Positions 45 to 6,067 of a stretch of 6,067 nt of DNA are shown piece after piece. The DNA is from a virus. Where the stretch lies: IMG/VR virus record IMGVR_UViG_3300038492_000631, positions 1 through 6,067 of that record. One strand, given 5' to 3'. A program made the translations under genes and the position numbers. The stretch's first letter is position 1; each line of letters opens with the position of its first letter. Below the pieces are notes generated by a model that was not told the DNA's origin, searched no databases, and saw only the letters and a list, made by a program, of their open reading frames with translations.

Positions 45-64
45 GGTTTTTCCCTTGATGTGTC

Positions 65-85
65 ACTAGGGCTGTTCGCCCTGGT
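65..85 (-). repeat. Conserved 21-nt stem-loop element, copy A (viral strand ACCAGGGCGAACAGCCCTAGT). It lies 20 nt upstream of the 206-aa ORF start.
   Basis: Exact 21/21 identity with 1997-2017 and 3454-3474. Internal inverted repeat AGGGC / GCCCT with a 5-nt loop. Confidence 0.9.
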
Positions 86-103
86 GAAGTTATGCCGTTA
101 GGT

Positions 104-126
104 ACCAGGTGCTCTAGGCACCTGGT
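104..126 (-). terminator. Perfect 9-bp hairpin (ACCAGGTGC / TCTAG loop / GCACCTGGT) in the VP1-downstream intergenic region. It is a candidate terminator, mRNA 3' stabiliser or complementary-strand priming structure.
   Basis: The inverted repeat was read directly, and both arms carry CCWGG. It is flanked by direct repeats CCGTTAGGT (95-103) and CCGTTTAGGT (135-144). No U-tract follows on the coding strand. Confidence 0.45.
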
Positions 127-245
127 CCGTCGATCCGTTTAGGTCAGAAGAAATTCCAGAACCTGGATTGCTACCGACGTAAACGCGAGGGCGAATTCAT
201 TCCTGGCATACGCCCTTGCTTTTTTCACCTGGTCGTCAACGCCCA

Positions 246-1904
246 TTAGTCGTTGACCGACGTTTCTTCATTGCGACTGTTGTCCATGAGCGCGCGCGTG
301 TCCGCCCACTCATTGTCGGATTCAACCAACTGGCCGCCGAACTGGGTCAGGCCGCGGATCTTGCCCATTCCCTTGACCTGGATGTCAAAGGGATCCTGGT
401 CCGAATCAATGAACGGATTCTGGTTCATTGACGTTGCGACGTACCACTCCGTCGTAAGCGTCGGATCGGTCGGTTCGACGATCCAGAGCTTTTCGCGGTC
501 CTGGTCGTAGGTCGGCGAGCCGTTGTCGCGGAAGTACTTGCCACCGATCCTGGTGGCAACGACATTCCACTGATCGTTCTTTGGCATGAAGCCGAAGGTG
601 TCGGTACCGGCGGAATGCTCCACGTCAATGTGGGAATTTTCGACCACCTCGACGGGCTCGACGTCCAGGAAGTCACGTAGTGCCTGGGGAAGGTCCGAAA
701 CGTCGCCGGCTTCAAGCCAGTAGTTTTTCTGACGCTCGAAAATCTGGTCGGGAAGGATCTCAACCAGGATCATGATGGTTCCTCCGCACTGGACCGGAGG
801 CGTTGCCAGGTTGAGCTTGAAGATGCCAGCGCCCTGGCTGGTTTTCTCATCCAGGCTACCGGCGGTCGTCGAATACCTGGTCGACGTACCCAGGGCGCCC
901 ATCGTTGTGTCCAGGAGGATCGGTTGCTTGTACATCTGGTCGGAAATCTCCAGACCCATCATGAGCCGGTCGATTTCCCAATCCTCATCCAGGCCAGTGT
1001 ACTTCTGCCGAAGCTTTGCGAACTTCTCGGTCCGACGAGCCGCCGCCACGTCGGCAAGCGACATGGTCAGCGAGCCGTCGGTGAGCTCCGCCCACAAGTT
1101 CGGATAGCCCGGATTGTCCGGATCCTCCTCGACATGGATATTCTGCGTATTGGTGACTGCCGTCGCCGCGTATTCCGTCTCGATCCCGCCGGTCTCGCGA
1201 ACGGTCACGTTGGTGTTCGGATACGTCGATCCTTCCCGGCCAATACCGCGCAGGTTGAGCTTTGACTGGACTACGTCAATGTCCACGGCACCGATGATCA
1301 GCTCCTGGTCGTATTCCGACACAATGTTGTTGAACTGCCGATGGTGCCAGAACGCCGGCGCGACATCGGTCAGGAATTCGTCGCGAAGAATGATGTTCTT
1401 GGAGCGGTTCTTGGCCCGGTGATTCCAGATGATGTTGTAGCACTCGACGTAGTCGGTGTTCGCGTTCGCGGAATCGATGACATGTTCGCCCATGTAGTAA
1501 TGGATGTTGTCCTCATCGGGGGTACCGATATCGCCCACGTTGATGTAGTCGATCGGCGACCCTCCCGAATAGGGAGCCTCACCGTGGTAGCTTCTCATGA
1601 GCTGATCCATCGACCCGTCAAACCTGGCCTTCGCCAGGTTGGGCACCAGGTACGCCGACATCTTGACCGTCACGCCGTTCAACAGCTCATCCGCTGTTTC
1701 ATCCATCCGGACCTTCATGGCAACCGTTGTGCTCCGGAGCTGATCGCCCTGGAGCAGCGGGATTGCCGCCACCGGAATGCACTTGCCAGCAGGCATCGAC
1801 GTCATGACATCGACCGTGTGTGTCCTGGTCGTCTTGGGAATATCGACCGGGGACGTGTTCGTCCTGGCGTTTCCGTAACTGACCTCTGCGTTGTTCTTCC
1901 TCAT
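246..1904 (-). CDS. Major capsid protein VP1 (Microviridae F-protein family).
   Basis: 552-aa ORF, the size typical of gokushovirus-type VP1. The N-terminal segment '...GKCIPVAAIPLLQGDQL...' resembles the conserved VP1 N-terminal 'LPGD' strand. 'YNIIWNHRAKNR' resembles the conserved 'Y-N-x-I-x-N-x-x-Y-R' block. It is syntenic with a microvirus Rep and pilot protein. The start is ATG at 1904 with SD AAGGAAG (complement of 1909-1915) 4 nt upstream (5 nt from the SD's last base to the A of ATG), and the stop is TAA at 248..246. Confidence 0.9.
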   Translation of the reverse strand: MRKNNAEVSYGNARTNTSPVDIPKTTRTHTVDVMTSMPAGKCIPVAAIPLLQGDQLRSTTVAMKVRMDETADELLNGVTVKMSAYLVPNLAKARFDGSMDQLMRSYHGEAPYSGGSPIDYINVGDIGTPDEDNIHYYMGEHVIDSANANTDYVECYNIIWNHRAKNRSKNIILRDEFLTDVAPAFWHHRQFNNIVSEYDQELIIGAVDIDVVQSKLNLRGIGREGSTYPNTNVTVRETGGIETEYAATAVTNTQNIHVEEDPDNPGYPNLWAELTDGSLTMSLADVAAARRTEKFAKLRQKYTGLDEDWEIDRLMMGLEISDQMYKQPILLDTTMGALGTSTRYSTTAGSLDEKTSQGAGIFKLNLATPPVQCGGTIMILVEILPDQIFERQKNYWLEAGDVSDLPQALRDFLDVEPVEVVENSHIDVEHSAGTDTFGFMPKNDQWNVVATRIGGKYFRDNGSPTYDQDREKLWIVEPTDPTLTTEWYVATSMNQNPFIDSDQDPFDIQVKGMGKIRGLTQFGGQLVESDNEWADTRALMDNSRNEETSVND

Positions 1905-1977: not shown

Positions 1978-1996
1978 TTTGCACCTGGCCCGCTTG

Positions 1997-2017
1997 ACTA
2001 GGGCTGTTCGCCCTGGT
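1997..2017 (-). repeat. Conserved 21-nt stem-loop element, copy B. It lies 4 nt downstream of the VP2 stop and 92 nt upstream of the VP1 start.
   Basis: Exact 21-nt identity with the other copies. Confidence 0.9.
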
Positions 2018-2021
2018 CGCG

Positions 2022-3056
2022 CTACCACGTCTCGCCGGTGTGATAGGTCTGTTTCGGTTTCGACCTATTCGGCATTGGTTCGGAGCCGCCGAACAGCCAG
2101 GGCATGATCGGTTCTTCATCGATCTTAGGCCCTTTGCCGTGCCACCATTCCATTCCATGGGCCCAAAGCGCCTGGTCCATGTCTGGGCCCTCAGGATTCG
2201 CGCCCCAAACGGTTCGACCGTTCTTGAGCTTTGTCGGAACCAGGTAACTTCCGCTTTCGCCTGTCCTTGGTTCCCAGGTTGACAGCGCCTCTCCTGGAGT
2301 TGCTTCGTCAGACCTTGACACCATCTTGAGTCCACGTTCCTGGGTCTTCATTCCCTGGTTCAAAAGTTCAAGGCGCTTTTCCAGGATCCTAGTTTCGAGT
2401 TCGTCTCGTTTGTCCTGGACGGGATCGCCGAGTATTGACTGTGCAATATCACCGAGTCCCGCAGCGGTCGCTGCTACGTCCGCAAATACTTCGCTGTCCT
2501 GCATCCCTTGGACAAGGCTTGGGATGCTTCCTGACGACGGCGCTGCGCCTGGTGCTCCTGGAGCTGAGCCTCCGCCGAAGGACATTGGACCGACAGACGG
2601 ACCGCCTCCTGTCGATCCGCCTCCGGAACTGACGGCGCCGAAAGCGGCGGCTGGATTGATTCCCGCCTTACGCAGTCCCTCGACCTGGAGCGAAGGTGCC
2701 TCGCCCAGATCAAAAAGCTGTTGACGACGGTTGCGAAGATAATTCGCATACTGATTTTCCTCTGTCTTACGCCACTCGTAATCCGACGCCTTCCTGTTCA
2801 GCCGAGCCGCCAGGAGAGCGTTGTCATAGTCGTAACCTTGCTGGACCCCCATAAGATCCTTTTGCTGGTCGAGTTGGTAATCCATCTTCTCGAGATCGTG
2901 AACATGGTTCCACTCAGCCATTTTGCGGCCGTACTGAAAATTCAGTGCGGCCGCTTTTCGTTGCGACAGTCCCTGGTTGAACATGCCGCTTAGCGAGCTG
3001 ATGATACTTGCGCCTCCAGACAAAATGCCTGGAAGCGCACCGATGAAGCCAACCAT
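2022..3056 (-). CDS. DNA pilot / minor capsid protein VP2. The ATG at 3056 is preferred; the ORF track extends to a GTG at 3083.
   Basis: Gly/Ser-rich hydrophobic N-terminus 'VGFIGALPGILSGGASIISS'. The motif 'LRKAGINPAAAFG' matches the 'AG(L/I)NP..A(F/Y)' signature of microvirus VP2/pilot proteins. A long Gly/Pro/Ser linker 'GGGSTGGGPSVGPMSFGGGSAPGAPGAAPSSGS' is present. The codon at 3083 is GTG. The in-frame ATG at 3056 is preceded by AAGGGAAAAACC (the same SD context as the 206-aa ORF) and overlaps the upstream stop as TAATG. Confidence 0.85.
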   Translation of the reverse strand: MVGFIGALPGILSGGASIISSLSGMFNQGLSQRKAAALNFQYGRKMAEWNHVHDLEKMDYQLDQQKDLMGVQQGYDYDNALLAARLNRKASDYEWRKTEENQYANYLRNRRQQLFDLGEAPSLQVEGLRKAGINPAAAFGAVSSGGGSTGGGPSVGPMSFGGGSAPGAPGAAPSSGSIPSLVQGMQDSEVFADVAATAAGLGDIAQSILGDPVQDKRDELETRILEKRLELLNQGMKTQERGLKMVSRSDEATPGEALSTWEPRTGESGSYLVPTKLKNGRTVWGANPEGPDMDQALWAHGMEWWHGKGPKIDEEPIMPWLFGGSEPMPNRSKPKQTYHTGETW

Positions 3057-3238
3057 TAAGGTTTTTCCCTTCCTCGCAGCCACTCCGACACGATGCTGAT
3101 TGCCGCCGTGACCAAAACGGCAATCGCATTTGCCACTGCCGTTTCATCAACGACAGCGGACGCCACCGCGCCGCCGGTCACCAGGTGTGACACCCGATTG
3201 ACGACGCGGTTAGTAAGTATTCCGACAACTTTTTTCAT
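3056..3238 (-). CDS. Small 60-aa membrane protein (hypothetical). It is a candidate holin-like or virion/pilot-associated membrane peptide.
   Basis: ATG at 3238 with SD AAAGGA 4 nt upstream ('GAAAGGAAAACATG'). Hydrophobic segment 'AVANAIAVLVTAAISIV' followed by a charged tail 'SEWLRGREKP'. The stop TAA overlaps the VP2 ATG (TAATG). Confidence 0.6.
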   Translation of the reverse strand: MKKVVGILTNRVVNRVSHLVTGGAVASAVVDETAVANAIAVLVTAAISIVSEWLRGREKP

Positions 3239-3741
3239 GTTTTCCTTTCACACCAGGGAATGTACGGCCTGGATGTTCCGTCGCCGCGATTCGCGACTGG
3301 CCTAGCCTTGCAGTGATTTGTTAGGTCGCGCAAGCTATCGCTTGAATGTTTTCCACCATGCAACCTTTTTTGTTTCTGCTTTGCTGGCCGGTTAGGTCGC
3401 GTTTCGCGCTCTAGGTTCCTCGCTTCGCGAGTTACCTGGAACGCGGCCCGCCAACTAGGGCTGTTCGCCCTGGTCGGCTCCGCCCTGGTTTTCCTGACAG
3501 GCATTTCACCTGGTTGAAGCCTGGTGACCCTCACGGTCCTTGCCCTGAGGTCCGGCCTGGTTGTCGTTCTTGATCTCCGACGGCTTTCCAACTCTGGAAA
3601 GCCCTCGACTGCCAAACGCATCAGCCTCTCGAAATCGGTCTGACGCCTTTGGATTTTCGTGCTCTTTCTTGGTGCGCGCGAGCGGTTTTCCTGTATGCGG
3701 CGGCTACGACGCCGCCGCTTTTTGTAGGAAGCCATCGCCAT
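3235..3741 (-). CDS. Arginine-rich basic protein, a possible J/VP8-like internal DNA-binding protein. The coding status of the distal two-thirds is uncertain.
   Basis: The ORF starts inside the last 40 codons of rep in another frame. AAGGGGA lies upstream of the two ATGs (3741 and 3735, with better spacing to 3735). The N-terminus 'KKRRRRSRRIQENRSRAPRKSTKIQRRQ' is protamine-like, as expected for microvirus DNA-packaging proteins. Against full-length coding: the ORF runs through DNA-level repeats (the 21-mer, and 11-mers in different frames), and 168 aa is far longer than known J/VP8 proteins. Confidence 0.45.
   Translation of the reverse strand: MAMASYKKRRRRSRRIQENRSRAPRKSTKIQRRQTDFERLMRLAVEGFPELESRRRSRTTTRPDLRARTVRVTRLQPGEMPVRKTRAEPTRANSPSWRAAFQVTREARNLERETRPNRPAKQKQKRLHGGKHSSDSLRDLTNHCKARPVANRGDGTSRPYIPWCERKT
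3320..3330 (-). repeat. 11-nt direct repeat GTTAGGTCGCG (viral strand CGCGACCTAAC), copy 1.
   Basis: Exact repeat of 3391-3401, 71 nt away. The core GTTAGGT also occurs at 97-103, and a variant GTTTAGGT at 137-144, in the other long non-coding region. Confidence 0.7.
3391..3401 (-). repeat. 11-nt direct repeat GTTAGGTCGCG, copy 2.
   Basis: Exact identity with 3320-3330. The 71-nt spacing is not a multiple of 3, so the two copies fall in different frames of the Arg-rich ORF. Confidence 0.7.
3454..3474 (-). repeat. Conserved 21-nt stem-loop element, copy C. It lies 146 nt downstream of the rep stop, inside the Arg-rich ORF.
   Basis: Exact 21-nt identity. It is preceded on the viral strand by a partial tandem copy, ACCAGGGCG, 15 nt upstream. 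Copies B and C also share GCGGGCC just downstream. Confidence 0.9.
3582..3603 (-). terminator. Perfect 9-bp hairpin GGCTTTCCA / 4-nt loop / TGGAAAGCC, 17 nt downstream of the rep stop.
   Basis: The inverted repeat was read directly. Its position immediately 3' of rep fits a phiX-like leaky terminator or RNA-stabilising hairpin. No U-tract follows. Confidence 0.45.
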
Positions 3742-4652
3742 TCCCCTTCACTGTTTTGTTTGAAAACCTCGATGAACCCAACTACAGGGTTCACCGTCGC
3801 CCACAAGCGCAACATTTCATCCCAGAAAACCGGACTTTGCTTGTACGGAGCTTCCGGTTTTTCTGTTGCGCTTCGATGCTCAAACTGCATACGCAGCTCG
3901 ACATCCTGGTCTCTTGCGATTTTGTCCTGGTAGGCTTCCAGGTACTCGCTGGAACCTGGCAAGGTTCCACGCTCCTTGCACCACAGCTCCTGGAAATCTT
4001 CCAGGAAAATCTGTGCCGCCCTACCTCTCAATTTATGAATCTGACCGTCTAACTCGTAACGGTCATCTTGTGGCACCAACCCCTGGCTGACGTAGTCTGC
4101 AGCCAGGTCGCGGATAAACTTGCGCCCTATTATCGGTTGGGTGCTCATCCGGAGTGGTTCTGTCATCACTCCGTGTTTCGCGTAGCGGTCCTTGAGCGCA
4201 TATTTGACGACGTACTTTATCTGAACGTCCTCTGTCGGCCTGGTCAAATAGACGAAGCCATTTTGCCAGTATTTGCACTCTTGCTTTTCCTTTCGCTCCG
4301 CAAAATTTTCGTAGGGATCGCTACCAGCGCCCCACAGAAGCATGTGCCAGTGGGCACGTCCTTTCCTGGAGCCGTATTCTCCGGCAACCAGGTAACGCAC
4401 GTTGTAACCGGCTTTCCGAAGCCGTTTGAGGAAATTTTGAACATCGCGATAGGAAAGCACCACGGCTGACGCCGGGTCCTTTCCGTCAGCTCCTGGTCGA
4501 TAAGTCAGGTCCAACCTGACAAACCAGGAGGCTTCCTTGGTTTCTGTTTTTATTCTGCCAAGCCAGTCGTTCACCAGGACCGACTGGCATTGCCAGCATT
4601 CCTTACACCCGATTTTCAGGCCACTGGGCAAGACGCCTGGGTTGATACACAT
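3621..4652 (-). CDS. Replication initiation protein VP4 (HUH rolling-circle endonuclease, Microviridae Rep / phiX gene-A-like).
   Basis: N-terminal Cys cluster 'MCINP...GCKECWQC'. Motif I-like 'FVRLDLTY'. HUH motif 'RAHWHMLLW' (codons at about 4344-4352). Two-tyrosine catalytic motif 'KYVVKYALK' (Y147 and Y151, about 4200-4214), closely resembling phiX174 A 'YVAKYVNK'. ATG at 4652, and AAAGGA upstream. Confidence 0.93.
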   Translation of the reverse strand: MCINPGVLPSGLKIGCKECWQCQSVLVNDWLGRIKTETKEASWFVRLDLTYRPGADGKDPASAVVLSYRDVQNFLKRLRKAGYNVRYLVAGEYGSRKGRAHWHMLLWGAGSDPYENFAERKEKQECKYWQNGFVYLTRPTEDVQIKYVVKYALKDRYAKHGVMTEPLRMSTQPIIGRKFIRDLAADYVSQGLVPQDDRYELDGQIHKLRGRAAQIFLEDFQELWCKERGTLPGSSEYLEAYQDKIARDQDVELRMQFEHRSATEKPEAPYKQSPVFWDEMLRLWATVNPVVGFIEVFKQNSEGEWRWLPTKSGGVVAAAYRKTARAHQERARKSKGVRPISRG

Positions 4653-4690
4653 CCGTTTTTATCCTTTGCCTTCAATCGGGTGTCAGGAAA

Positions 4691-4714
4691 GACACTATTA
4701 TACAAGTTGGTGTC
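4691..4714 (-). promoter_or_regulatory. Candidate viral-strand replication origin / rep promoter region. The stem GACAC/GTGTC encloses CAACTTG followed by TATAATAG on the viral strand.
   Basis: The viral strand reads GACAC-CAACTTGTATAATA-GTGTC. CAACTTG (4709..4703) equals the first 7 nt of the phiX174 30-nt origin, CAACTTG^ATATTAATAAC. It is followed by the most AT-rich patch of the genome and lies 50 nt upstream of the rep ATG. The same TATAAT (4702..4697) is a perfect -10 hexamer, but I found no -35. Confidence 0.4.
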
Positions 4715-4722
4715 TGCCTTCC

Positions 4723-4759
4723 GCCCGCCCCTTCGCCTTATGTTGGCTACGGGGCGGGC
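4723..4759 (-). terminator. GC-rich 9-bp stem (GCCCGCCCC ... GGGGCGGGC) with a 19-nt loop, 12 nt downstream of the M15 peptidase stop.
   Basis: Perfect 9-bp G/C-only inverted repeat. It separates the peptidase from the rep upstream region. Confidence 0.45.
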
Positions 4760-4771
4760 TCCGCTGTTGAC

Positions 4772-5395
4772 TTAGTCAATCAGCTCCCAATGTGCGGGAT
4801 CGTAAAGCGAGTGCTCCAGGACGTTGCCGTCGCTGTCCCAATCTCCGCCGTTGCGGATCGGGATAGCGAGATCCCTTGCCAGGGTGTGGCCCAGCATCAT
4901 AATTGCGGCCCACTCCCCTTTGTTCAGGTTCCAGAACCTGGTCGAGTGAACGATGTCAACGGCTTTTCCGGCAGGATGCTTTCCGCCGGTCTTGATCTTG
5001 CTGAAGCCCTTCTCGTAAAGCTCCCGCTGGCGCTGGGGCGACCGCATTGCTTCCTGGACGTGAAACGGAAGCCGCTGCTTGACCAGGCGTTTACAAAACA
5101 CCTGGGCAAACAGCTTGATTCGCGGATCAACCCCGCGCCAATCCGCCCTGGAGGCGTACCTGGCCGACTTCGCCCTGGCGTTTTCATCGACCAGGCGCTG
5201 GAGCCCGACCGGCTCGGTGTAGCCGTCCACCTTGTAGTGGTTCGGATCGTAGTAAAGCAGCTCCGACGCATTCATTTTCACAATGTCCCGCTGGTCCATG
5301 TACATTCTCCGGATTGTCTTTCTGATGTGATGTGCCTTTGGCCCCGTTGCTGTTCGCAACGAGGCCTCCAGCGCCTTCCTGGCAATGCCGCTCAT
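4772..5395 (-). CDS. Peptidase M15 family zinc peptidoglycan hydrolase (VanY / L-Ala-D-Glu peptidase-like), a putative endolysin with an unassigned ~90-aa N-terminal extension.
   Basis: Catalytic-domain signatures: 'RSPQRQRELYEKG', then 'HPAGKAVDIVH' (H-x-x-G-x-A-x-D zinc ligands), and a C-terminal 'DPAHWEL' (D-x-x-H-x-E, third ligand and catalytic residue). No N-terminal signal peptide is visible. The ATG at 5395 overlaps the upstream stop (ATGA). Confidence 0.85.
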   Translation of the reverse strand: MSGIARKALEASLRTATGPKAHHIRKTIRRMYMDQRDIVKMNASELLYYDPNHYKVDGYTEPVGLQRLVDENARAKSARYASRADWRGVDPRIKLFAQVFCKRLVKQRLPFHVQEAMRSPQRQRELYEKGFSKIKTGGKHPAGKAVDIVHSTRFWNLNKGEWAAIMMLGHTLARDLAIPIRNGGDWDSDGNVLEHSLYDPAHWELID

Positions 5396-6012
5396 TTCTT
5401 CTTAGGTGCGGTATCTGAGGTCTCGACGACCTCTTGATTTTCATTGCCCGGCTCGCCGGTCGTCGTGGAGATCGGCGGGTCCGCCGGGTGCGGTGCCTTG
5501 GGATCGGGACTGACGCCCTTCGCCTTTGCGTCCTTCTTCATCTCCTCCAAGTCAGCCAACAGCGACTTGATCTGTTTCTGCTGTTCCTCGAAGGCCTTGA
5601 ACTCGGCTTTCTTACGCCGTTCTTCGTTCTGCTTTGCGATAGCCGCGACCAGCTCGGCCTGAGGATCGCGAACGCGTTCGCGCATTGGCCGCACGAACAC
5701 CGGTCCTTTGACTTCAAACCTGGTTCCCCTGAGGTTCCTGGTCCGGACGTTGACCGGCTTGGAAAAGGTGATGATTCCACCACCCTTCAGCTTTAGGTCG
5801 ATTGTCACGACCTCCGCTCCCGGGACAGGAAAAAAGTGTTCCACGGGCTGGCCCTGGTCATCGACGGTCCTGCCGTCACTGACAGTCATAGCGCAGCCTT
5901 CCTGGGCAAGCACCTCCAGCTTGATTCCGGTGTGCTTTGCACCGTGACTTTCCAGAGAAAGGCTTTCGATTGTGTGCCACTCTTCAGTGGCCCCGATTTT
6001 GAAGAACTTCAT
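5392..6012 (-). CDS. Hypothetical 206-aa protein. It has a beta-rich N-domain, a charged coiled-coil and a Pro-rich acidic tail, and may be a scaffolding (VP3-like) or accessory protein.
   Basis: ATG at 6012 with SD AAGGGA (complement of 6019-6024) 6 nt upstream. The central heptad-like charged helix is 'AELVAAIAKQNEERRKKAEFKAFEEQQKQIKSLLADLEEMKKDAKAKG'. The tail 'SPDPKAPHPADPPISTTTGEPGNENQEVVETSDTAPKKK' looks disordered. I recognise no family motif. Confidence 0.7.
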   Translation of the reverse strand: MKFFKIGATEEWHTIESLSLESHGAKHTGIKLEVLAQEGCAMTVSDGRTVDDQGQPVEHFFPVPGAEVVTIDLKLKGGGIITFSKPVNVRTRNLRGTRFEVKGPVFVRPMRERVRDPQAELVAAIAKQNEERRKKAEFKAFEEQQKQIKSLLADLEEMKKDAKAKGVSPDPKAPHPADPPISTTTGEPGNENQEVVETSDTAPKKK

Positions 6013-6067
6013 GGTTTTTCCCTTGATGTGTCACTAGGGCTGTTCGCCCTGGTGAAGTTATGCCGTT
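5969..6067. repeat. Second copy of the terminal redundancy (equals 1-99).
   Basis: Exact 99-nt identity with the window start. Confidence 0.97.
6033..6053 (-). repeat. Copy A of the 21-nt element seen again inside the terminal redundancy. It is not an independent copy.
   Basis: 65-85 plus 5,968. Confidence 0.9.

What the first reader, a model, noticed from the sequence alone, without database searches (positions are those of the whole stretch)
1997..2017. Perfectly conserved 21-nt stem-loop element present at three module boundaries
ACTAGGGCTGTTCGCCCTGGT (viral strand ACCAGGGCGAACAGCCCTAGT) occurs at 65-85, 1997-2017 and 3454-3474 with 21/21 identity. A 6-kb genome should not contain even one chance 21-mer repeat. 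It folds as AGGGC-loop5-GCCCT. The stem extends to 7 bp with one G-T (G-U wobble) pair on the window plus strand, and with a C-A mismatch on the viral strand. Each copy precedes a gene block: the 206-aa ORF plus M15 peptidase, VP1, and the small TM protein plus VP2. Copy B sits 4 nt after the VP2 stop. Copies B and C share further downstream similarity (GCGGGCC), and copy C has a half-copy (ACCAGGGCG) 15 nt upstream. This resembles a reiterated cis-element. It could be a terminator/processing or stabilising hairpin, an operator for a host or phage factor, or an ssDNA structural, priming or packaging signal. I know of no described equivalent in cultured microviruses.
Basis: seen in the sequence. 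Interest (0 to 1): 0.66.

Follow-up and report, generated by a model that had tools for sequence, protein, structure and literature searches.

The report
Repeated GAACA-loop hairpins in a microvirus
A 6-kb circular single-stranded-DNA phage carries four same-direction copies of a stable hairpin with an identical five-base loop at the junctions between its gene blocks, most likely to mark and protect segments of one long transcript; the element is real and specific to this lineage, but its function is untested.

Summary
ACTAGGGCTGTTCGCCCTGGT occurs exactly at 65, 1997 and 3454. A fourth hit at 6033 is the 99-nt assembly overlap of a 5,968-nt circle. None is expected by chance.

A fourth, diverged member (5340-5366) has the same GAACA loop and closing pairs on a different stem. 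Compensatory changes support a real single-strand hairpin: 8 of 12 pairs change on both sides.

All four copies point the same way as the genes. They sit at the four junctions Rep/Arg-rich | TM-VP2 | VP1 | 206-aa | endolysin. Copy C lies inside a real 128-aa Arg-rich gene.

None has a U-tract or promoter, and Rfam finds nothing. The nearest relative (60% VP1 identity) and 80 others lack the element.

Exact copies in a Geomonas inovirus prophage and in Kordiimonas sit in unrelated hosts. The inovirus copy arose in place inside a gene. Both matches may be coincidence.

Best guess (0.4): intercistronic RNA hairpins that bound and stabilise segments of one polycistronic transcript. The main rival (0.25) is an ssDNA signal for priming or folding.

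Separately, the genome has a 5-fold excess of CCWGG, which relatives avoid. This is unexplained.

The parts
63..87 (-). Hairpin A: tcACCAGGGC-GAACA-GCCCTAGTga (10 pairs including one C/A mismatch). Intergenic, 20 nt upstream of the ATG of the 206-aa gene. The 21-mer core is 65-85. It is duplicated at 6033-6053 by the assembly overlap.
1996..2018 (-). Hairpin B: gACCAGGGC-GAACA-GCCCTAGTc. Intergenic, 4 nt after the VP2 stop and 92 nt before the VP1 ATG. The 21-mer core is 1997-2017.
3450..3478 (-). Hairpin C: gccgACCAGGGC-GAACA-GCCCTAGTtggc (11 pairs plus one mismatch). It lies inside the Arg-rich 128-aa gene, at about codons 50-56, where it encodes TRANSPS. It is 215 nt upstream of the TM-protein ATG. 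The 21-mer core is 3454-3474.
5340..5366 (-). Hairpin D, a new diverged member: GGCCTCGTTGC-GAACA-GCAACGGGGCC (11 pairs including one U.G). It lies 25 nt after the stop of the 206-aa gene and 40 nt before the probable endolysin start (Met33, ATG at 5299).
3482..3490 (-). Half-copy ACCAGGGCG, 15 nt upstream of C. It belongs to the over-represented CCAGGGCG 8-mer class (8 copies in the genome; 5 in the relative L007).
3235..3621 (-). Arg-rich 128-aa gene that contains hairpin C. Its ATG overlaps the Rep stop (TGATG). It is the same length as the L007 orthologue and both end in PWCERK.
4653..4771 (-). IG4, the only intergenic spacer without a GAACA hairpin. It has a different G/C-only hairpin (4723-4759) and an AT-rich CAACTTGTATAAT stretch. 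It is a candidate origin, promoter or terminator region that would bound the proposed single transcription unit.

Best explanation
The element is a lineage-specific family of four co-oriented hairpins. Each has an invariant apex (GC-GAACA-GC, a GNRNA-type pentaloop) and a stem of 8-11 bp.

I infer that the hairpins act in the phage's mRNA. All genes lie on one strand, and the only spacer without a family member (IG4, upstream of Rep) is the likely start and end of a single polycistronic transcript. The hairpins would divide that transcript into Rep/Arg-rich | TM-VP2 | VP1 | 206-aa | endolysin. As stable stem-loops without a U-tract they would not terminate efficiently. Instead they would block 3'-exonucleases, cap the 5' ends left by endonuclease cleavage, and perhaps pause or attenuate RNA polymerase. 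The gene blocks could then accumulate at different levels from one promoter.

Shown: the repeats, the structure, its covariation, the common orientation, the junction positions, and the absence of U-tracts.

Inferred: the transcript map, the RNA as the acting molecule, and the stabilising or processing effect.
For: - Exact triplicate plus a diverged fourth copy sharing the 9-mer GCGAACAGC, all on the coding strand.
- 8 of 12 stem pairs change on both sides. 80.6% of cells are paired against 65% in shuffles (0/500), and the slid registers collapse.
- The apical pairs form with probability 0.9-1.0 in 201-nt context and appear in the MFE folds of the spacers.
- Hairpins with a stem of at least 5 bp and a GNRNA loop: 4 observed against 0.23 in shuffles.
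- Three of the four copies lie in spacers directly after a stop codon or before an RBS: B is +4 nt from the VP2 stop, D is +25 nt from the 206-aa stop, and A is 20 nt before an ATG.
- The nearest relative, L007, has unrelated hairpins after the VP2 stop and at the VP1 stop. Boundary hairpins therefore look like a conserved need while their sequence is free, as expected for stabiliser or terminator hairpins.
- Established knowledge (from memory): phiX174 has hairpins after genes J, F, G and H that act as leaky terminators or mRNA stabilisers. E. coli REP elements and the Rhodobacter puf intercistronic hairpins protect upstream mRNA segments. f1 mRNAs are processed inside coding regions.
Against: - No U-tract follows any copy, and the scan places no terminator or sigma-70 promoter at them. 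A classical terminator role is therefore excluded, and the stabiliser role is untested.
- Copy C lies inside a translated gene, where cleavage or 3'-end formation would cost Arg-rich protein.
- A generic stability role does not explain why the loop and closing pairs are invariant.
- The element is absent from all relatives.
- No transcript data exist and the host is unknown.
- The same geometry would form in the packaged ssDNA, so the acting molecule is not resolved.
Confidence: 0.4

Rival explanations
1. The hairpins act in the packaged single-stranded DNA. They fold in the viral strand and serve as entry sites for host priming of complementary-strand synthesis, or as folding or packaging nodes of the genome.
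For: - The hairpins form equally well with DNA parameters.
- An ssDNA role is indifferent to coding context, which fits copy C lying inside a gene.
- All four copies share the orientation of the strand that Microviridae package (family knowledge).
- Conserved intergenic hairpins with compensatory changes in very small microviruses have been tentatively linked to primosome recognition (PMC9865509).
- The same 21-mer occurs in the coding (packaged) strand of an inovirus, another ssDNA phage.
Against: - Known complementary-strand origins (phiX174 PriA site, G4 and Ff origins; from memory) are single, larger and composite. Four dispersed short hairpins have no precedent.
- The placement at gene junctions is not explained.
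- DNA stability of the core is modest (-5 kcal/mol).
- The inovirus match is in a Geomonas prophage, an unrelated host, and may be chance.
- The genome has about 90 other hairpins of at least 6 bp.
Confidence: 0.25
2. The hairpins are a loop-specific operator. A protein reads the GAACA loop in RNA or ssDNA, in the manner of lambda N binding boxB. The candidate is the phage's own Arg-rich 128-aa protein or a host factor, coupling expression or packaging of the blocks.
For: - The invariant apex on variable stems is the signature of loop recognition.
- The 5-bp apical stem plus a GNRNA pentaloop matches the boxB architecture (from memory).
- The phage encodes a very basic protein.
Against: - There is no boxA-like sequence next to any copy.
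- The Arg-rich protein has no Pfam hit.
- It has an orthologue in L007, which lacks the hairpins, and every gene of the window has an L007 orthologue, so there is no private trans-factor.
- The basic protein is more simply a J/VP8-type DNA-condensing protein (inference).
Confidence: 0.12
3. There is no dedicated function. One boundary hairpin was copied within the genome recently, by template switching or gene conversion during rolling-circle replication, and the identity of A, B and C simply reflects their youth.
For: - A, B and C are 21/21 identical, while B and C also share partly diverged flanks (about 39 nt), as expected for a duplicated segment.
- The element is absent from every relative.
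- No within-species variation is available to show purifying selection, because L006 is identical to the window.
Against: - The fourth copy, D, keeps the loop and pairing through six stem differences, which requires selection on the structure.
- Each copy has acquired its own context-specific stem extension.
- Direct repeats in a 6-kb rolling-circle genome invite deletion, yet they persist.
Confidence: 0.1
4. The hairpins are mobile or host-derived palindromic units, of REP or MITE type, or a host-specific signal shared by phages of one host.
For: The exact 21-mer is also present in an inovirus prophage and in Kordiimonas aquimaris. In each case different flanks extend the stem.
Against: - Only one genome among 185,579 species has it, and only once.
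- The Y/R-relaxed metagenome scan found only the same inovirus.
- The hosts are unrelated: Geomonas and Kordiimonas.
- In the inovirus it lies in frame inside a conserved lipoprotein gene and aligns with homologous codons of relatives, with no insertion.
- There is no target-site duplication and no GTAG motif (sequence).
- My estimate of the chance of two such exact hits in about 1.7e12 nt searched is roughly 0.03-0.2.
Confidence: 0.05
5. The hairpins are a palindromic double-stranded operator for a dimeric regulator, or the rolling-circle origin or nick site for Rep.
For: The 21-mer is an imperfect palindrome. HUH Rep proteins often nick at hairpins (from memory).
Against: - In copy D the arms differ while the spacer is conserved, the opposite of a half-site operator.
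- Four co-oriented origins would cut the genome into sub-genomic circles.
- The Reps of the microvirus and the inovirus are only 21% identical.
- A better origin candidate lies in IG4.
Confidence: 0.04

Closest known systems
phiX174 intercistronic hairpins (terminators TJ, TF, TG, TH and mRNA-stabilising signals)
   Same: Same virus family. The hairpins sit at gene junctions, are co-oriented with a one-strand gene set, and are thought to shape a nested set of mRNAs.
   Different: The phiX174 hairpins each have a different sequence. Here three are identical and a fourth shares the apex. No U-tract follows any copy, and one copy is intragenic. The comparison rests on memory of the phiX174 literature, not on a test.
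REP/BIME extragenic palindromes of enterobacteria
   Same: Reiterated, near-identical imperfect palindromes placed after genes. They protect upstream mRNA and modulate downstream expression.
   Different: REPs are chromosomal, occur in hundreds of copies, carry a GTAG motif and are mobilised by RAYT transposases. This element has four copies in a phage, lacks GTAG, and no host with multiple copies was found.
Lambda nut boxB hairpins bound by the Arg-rich N protein
   Same: A 5-bp G/C stem with a GNRNA pentaloop, reiterated at operon starts and read in RNA. The phage encodes an Arg-rich protein.
   Different: There is no boxA and no N-family match. The orthologous Arg-rich protein exists in a relative without hairpins. 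The hosts are not enterobacteria.
Complementary-strand origin hairpins of ssDNA phages (phiX174 PriA site, G4 origin, Ff minus origin) and the conserved hairpins of roodoodoo- and reekeekeeviruses (PMC9865509)
   Same: Stable hairpins in the packaged strand of small ssDNA phages, with compensatory substitutions and a conserved loop.
   Different: Those occur at one locus per genome, are usually longer or composite, and lie between Cap and Rep. Here there are four dispersed short copies at gene junctions.
T4 intercistronic C(UUCG)G hairpins
   Same: The same very stable loop sequence recurs in the intercistronic regions of one phage genome.
   Different: That is a tetraloop of known exceptional stability in a large dsDNA phage. 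The stability of the GAACA pentaloop has not been measured. The comparison is from memory.

Membership tests
Intrinsic (rho-independent) terminator | G+C-rich stem-loop | tested here: met
   Stems of 8-11 bp; -14 to -27 kcal/mol with flanks
Intrinsic (rho-independent) terminator | Run of U/T directly after the stem | tested here: not met
   None of the four copies, on either strand, is followed by a T run. The scan lists no terminator at them (sequence)
REP/RAYT-type repetitive extragenic palindrome | Many copies in a host chromosome | tested here: not met
   The exact 21-mer occurs in 1 of 185,579 species genomes, once. Diverged copies cannot be excluded.
REP/RAYT-type repetitive extragenic palindrome | Conserved GTAG tetranucleotide at the base of the hairpin | tested here: not met
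   The flanks are tc/ga, g/c, gccg/tggc and ggcc/ggcc. No GTAG is present.
Lambda-type nut site | boxB: short stem with a GNRNA pentaloop | tested here: met
   AGGGC-GAACA-GCCCT and GTTGC-GAACA-GCAAC
Lambda-type nut site | boxA (CGCTCTTTA-like) just upstream of boxB | tested here: not met
   With up to 2 mismatches there are 16 hits against 14 expected. The single coding-strand hit is not near any hairpin.
Lambda-type nut site | N-family antiterminator protein | tested here: not met
   The Arg-rich ORF has no Pfam match.
Any curated RNA family (Rfam 15) | Covariance-model match | tested here: not met
   No hit at E<=1 in the window
Complementary-strand origin / primosome assembly site | Hairpin in the packaged strand recognised by PriA, DnaG or RNA polymerase | not testable with these tools
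   The structure forms as DNA. Recognition needs biochemistry, and the host is unknown.
Rolling-circle (+) origin | A single Rep nick site per genome | tested here: not met
   There are four co-oriented copies. A separate phiX174-like CAACTTG/TATAAT stretch lies in IG4.
Palindromic dsDNA operator | Conserved half-site arms with a free spacer | tested here: not met
   Copy D has different arms but the same spacer.

The most novel reading that the evidence does not exclude
The invariant GC-GAACA-GC apex is the recognition site of a dedicated loop-binding factor. The factor would be either the phage's own Arg-rich protein or a host nucleic-acid-binding protein. This would give the microvirus a private cis/trans system that coordinates expression, or coupled replication and packaging, of its gene blocks. 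The exact matches in an inovirus and in Kordiimonas would then be convergent uses of the same hairpin rather than coincidence.
Probability: 0.12. Interest if true: 0.75.

Novelty: new variant of a known kind. Interest (0 to 1): 0.45.

Why it matters
Regulation in Microviridae outside phiX174 is essentially unmapped. A compact genome that marks every gene-block junction with the same hairpin offers a simple, mutable handle on how a 6-kb ssDNA phage sets the ratios of its seven proteins, or how it primes and folds its DNA. The apex-conserved, stem-variable design also gives a concrete search rule for finding analogous elements in other uncultured microviruses.

The accompanying CCWGG excess may matter more. 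The wider clade avoids this motif, so this lineage appears to have reversed a restriction-avoidance signature.

Tried and rejected
- **Shared host signal or mobile unit.** The exact 21-mer is also in an inovirus contig (L001, the same element as L003/L004) and in Kordiimonas. The inovirus is a Geomonas prophage. There the 21-mer lies in frame inside a conserved lipoprotein gene, without any insertion, and related inoviruses lack it. The two Reps are only 21% identical. My estimate of the chance of two such hits is about 0.03-0.2. I treat these matches as unproven and not as evidence of function.
- **Dcm/Vsr decoy idea.** The C/A mismatch falls on the inner C of CCAGG, and the T.G pair on the other strand sits in the Vsr sequence context. 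Copy D has neither a CCWGG site nor that mismatch, so the link is incidental.
- **Vsr-driven conversion as the source of the CCWGG excess.** The deamination neighbours are only 0.76 of expectation.
- **CCWGG as regularly spaced or locally paired sites.** Spacing is random-like (CV about 1) and there is no excess of local pairing.
- **Broad family search.** The 15-mer cores give 37 and more than 120 IMG/VR hits. These are chance matches or conserved coding sequence. GenBank phages and plasmids give only insignificant hits. Blackfly microvirus SF02 matches 16 of 21 nt, but with a 4-bp stem inside a CDS, so I judged it chance.
- **Within-species variation.** None is available. L006 is identical to the window and L005 is the same record.
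- **Sample provenance.** Nothing was found in the literature.
- **A single-protein VP1 scan of IMG/VR.** It found nothing. A scan with a VP1 alignment was needed.

Full report
**What the window is**

The first 99 bases repeat at the end, so the sequence is a 5,968-nt circle. All genes lie on the minus strand:
- VP1 at 246-1904 (PHROG major head protein).
- VP2 pilot protein at 2022-3083.
- A 60-aa membrane protein at 3056-3238.
- Rep at 3621-4652 (PF23343 and a PHROG replication initiator).
- An endolysin-like protein at 4772-5395.
- A 206-aa protein at 5392-6012.

GenBank phages share only short VP1 stretches with it. The closest VP1 in the 5.8-billion-protein set is 60% identical. The next are about 42%, and prophage copies occur in Rhizobium genomes. 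It is therefore an uncultured microvirus of a clade associated with Alphaproteobacteria. I take the coding strand to be the packaged strand, as in all known Microviridae; this is family knowledge, not something tested here.

**The observation**

ACTAGGGCTGTTCGCCCTGGT occurs exactly at 65, 1997 and 3454, and at 6033, which is the overlap copy of the first. No match with up to 3 mismatches appeared in 200 shuffles. The 21-mer folds into 8 pairs around a 5-nt loop. The window + strand has a T.G pair; the coding strand has a C/A mismatch.

**A fourth member and covariation**

I scanned the coding strand for stems of at least 5 bp closed on a GNRNA loop. This found four hairpins against 0.23 in shuffles. 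They are the three known copies plus GGCCTCGTTGC-GAACA-GCAACGGGGCC at 5340-5366.

The 9-mer GCGAACAGC occurs four times, always on the coding strand. Copy D shares the loop and the two closing pairs with A, B and C but differs at six stem positions while staying paired. The flanks of A, B and C each extend the stem with different bases.

On an alignment of the four copies plus the two external ones:
- 8 of 12 pairs change on both sides.
- 80.6% of cells are paired against 65% in shuffles (0 of 500 reach the observed value).
- Registers slid by 1-3 columns fall to 22-50%.

The apical pairs have probability 0.9-1.0 in 201-nt context, as RNA or as DNA. The structure is therefore real. The conserved part is the apex, not the arms. 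That argues against a palindromic duplex operator and for a single-stranded hairpin.

**Where the copies sit**

Two gene starts need correcting.
- **Arg-rich ORF.** It is a real gene. Its last 51 residues are 43% identical to a 128-aa protein at the same position in the relative L007 (E 1e-10), and both end in PWCERK. An in-frame ATG overlaps the Rep stop (TGATG) and gives exactly 128 aa. Copy C is therefore intragenic, at about codons 50-56.
- **Endolysin.** It aligns with its L007 orthologue only from residue 44. Met33 has a GGAG 7 nt upstream, and the independent assembly calls a 175-aa product. Copy D is therefore intergenic.

With these corrections the order on the coding strand is: IG4, Rep, Arg-rich[C], TM, VP2, [B], VP1, 35-aa ORF, [A], 206-aa, [D], endolysin, IG4. 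Every junction between gene blocks carries one family member. Only IG4 lacks one. IG4 instead has a G/C-only hairpin and an AT-rich stretch.

**What the element is not**
- **Not a terminator or promoter.** No copy is followed by a T run on either strand, and the scan places no sigma-70 promoter or terminator at them.
- **Not a known RNA family.** Rfam has no match.
- **Not a nut site.** There is no boxA-like sequence nearby, and the Arg-rich protein has no Pfam hit.
- **Not served by a private phage protein.** All seven genes have orthologues in L007, which lacks the element.

**Relatives**

L007 to L009 (60% VP1 identity), L010 and 80 IMG/VR relatives have no 21-mer at up to 4-5 mismatches. 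They also have no reiterated hairpin and no GAACA-loop family. L007 does have unrelated hairpins after the VP2 stop and across the VP1 stop. The second assembly of this phage is identical to the window, so there is no population variation to use.

**External matches**

The exact 21-mer occurs once in an inovirus-like prophage (rolling-circle Rep and a Zot-like protein), and the metagenome scan re-finds the same element. It also occurs once in Kordiimonas aquimaris, 16 nt after a stop codon between convergent ORFs. Both have their own stem extensions.

Several findings argue against reading much into these matches:
- The prophage is in Geomonas, since the flanking creatininase is 100% identical to one from a Geomonas MAG. 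Kordiimonas is a marine alphaproteobacterium.
- In the inovirus the 21-mer lies in frame within a conserved small lipoprotein gene. It aligns with homologous codons of relatives without any insertion, and those relatives lack it.
- The two Reps are only 21% identical.
- From the frequencies of the 15-mer cores, I estimate about 0.2-0.8 exact hits by chance in the roughly 1.7e12 nt searched. Two hits are therefore only suggestive.

I do not use these matches as evidence of function.

**Mechanism**

The features that need explaining are:
- a single-strand hairpin;
- an invariant apex on a free stem;
- co-orientation with transcription;
- one copy at each block junction;
- no U-tract;
- one intragenic copy;
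- lineage specificity;
- relatives that carry other hairpins at the same junctions.

The reading that fits most of these is an intercistronic RNA hairpin. It would bound and protect segments of one polycistronic transcript and tune block-wise expression. This is analogous to the phiX174 junction hairpins, REP elements and the Rhodobacter puf hairpins, all recalled from memory. I give it 0.4.

Its weak points are copy C inside a gene and the unexplained invariance of the loop. An ssDNA role in priming or folding handles copy C easily and has a literature parallel (PMC9865509). It does not explain the junction placement or the multiplicity; I give it 0.25. A loop-specific protein operator gets 0.12. 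Recent neutral duplication gets 0.1 and is opposed by the compensated stem of copy D. The mobile-unit, origin and duplex-operator readings are unlikely.

**The CCWGG excess (found in passing)**

The genome has 83 CCWGG sites against 16 expected from base composition. In coding regions there are 67, against 26.5 +/- 3.9 in synonymous-codon shuffles. The sites occur in all reading frames and are densest in non-coding DNA.

L007 shares the excess (72 against 18), but only 13 of 51 sites are at aligned positions. About 80 more distant relatives are depleted, with ratios of 0-0.5. Conversion from deamination neighbours, regular spacing and local pairing do not explain the excess.

The left arm of hairpins A, B and C is one of these sites, and CCAGGGCG is itself over-represented. 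Hairpin D has no such site, so the two features are probably independent.

**Verdict**

The finding is real and extends from three copies to a four-member structural family. It is a new variant of the known class of junction hairpins in ssDNA phages. It is lineage-specific and its function is undetermined. Interest is moderate.

Noticed in passing
whole window (for example 16 sites within non-coding 45-245, 1905-2021 and 3239-3620); also L007-L009: CCWGG is over-represented 5-fold: 83 sites against 16.3 expected, and 67 in CDS against 26.5 +/- 3.9 in synonymous-codon shuffles. The excess is strand-biased (56 CCAGG to 27 CCTGG on the coding strand). The 60% relative shares it, but mostly at different positions. 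About 80 more distant relatives are strongly depleted. The phage has no methyltransferase gene. Unexplained.
   Followed up: yes
window 4653-4771 (IG4), especially 4697-4709 and 4723-4759: This is the only spacer without a GAACA hairpin. It holds a 9-bp all-G/C stem and, on the coding strand, CAACTTGTATAAT. From memory, this resembles the phiX174 origin core CAACTTG/ATATTAATAAC. AACTTGT recurs in non-coding DNA of about 10 marine relatives, but L007 has no AACTTG. It is a candidate rolling-circle origin or promoter.
   Followed up: partly
window 3235-3621 (minus strand): The Arg-rich ORF is a real 128-aa gene translationally coupled to Rep (TGATG). It is orthologous to a 128-aa gene in L007 and both end in PWCERK. 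It is probably the DNA-condensing (J/VP8-like) protein. The JGI gene call on the same genome missed it.
   Followed up: yes
window 5297-5395: The endolysin most likely starts at Met33 (ATG at 5299, with GGAG 7 nt upstream), not at 5395. This frees a 90-nt spacer that holds hairpin D.
   Followed up: partly
window 3286-3296, 3396-3409, 3420-3432: A cluster of CGCGAA-type mini-hairpins lies in the 3' half of the Arg-rich gene: TCGCGAATCGC, GCGCGAAACGCGAC, and CTCGCGAAGCGAG, which contains GCGAAGC. CGCGAA occurs 10 times on the coding strand against 3 on the other.
   Followed up: no
window 104-126; L007 454-482: A perfect 9-bp hairpin, ACCAGGTGC-CTAGA-GCACCTGGT, lies after VP1. L007 has a similar arm (GACCAGGTGCC) in a hairpin upstream of Rep. 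This may be a second shared hairpin type built from CCWGG sites.
   Followed up: no
L001 8313-8501 (= L131 about 11740-11930); L131 2172-8164: The inovirus prophage carrying the same 21-mer is integrated in a Geomonas genome next to a Tn7-like element (TnsA-like, transposase and AAA_22 genes). The 21-mer forms a 12-bp hairpin inside a conserved small lipoprotein gene.
   Followed up: partly
L133 (MK249234.1) 1589-1604: Blackfly microvirus SF02 has CCAGGGCGAACAGCCC (16 of the 21 nt) about 60 nt after its capsid gene. The stem is only 4 bp and the match lies inside a CDS (QGEQP). I judged it chance.
   Followed up: yes
window 139-248 (minus strand): A 35-aa ORF overlaps the VP1 stop (TAATG) and is called in both independent assemblies. 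Whether it is a real gene was not tested.
   Followed up: no
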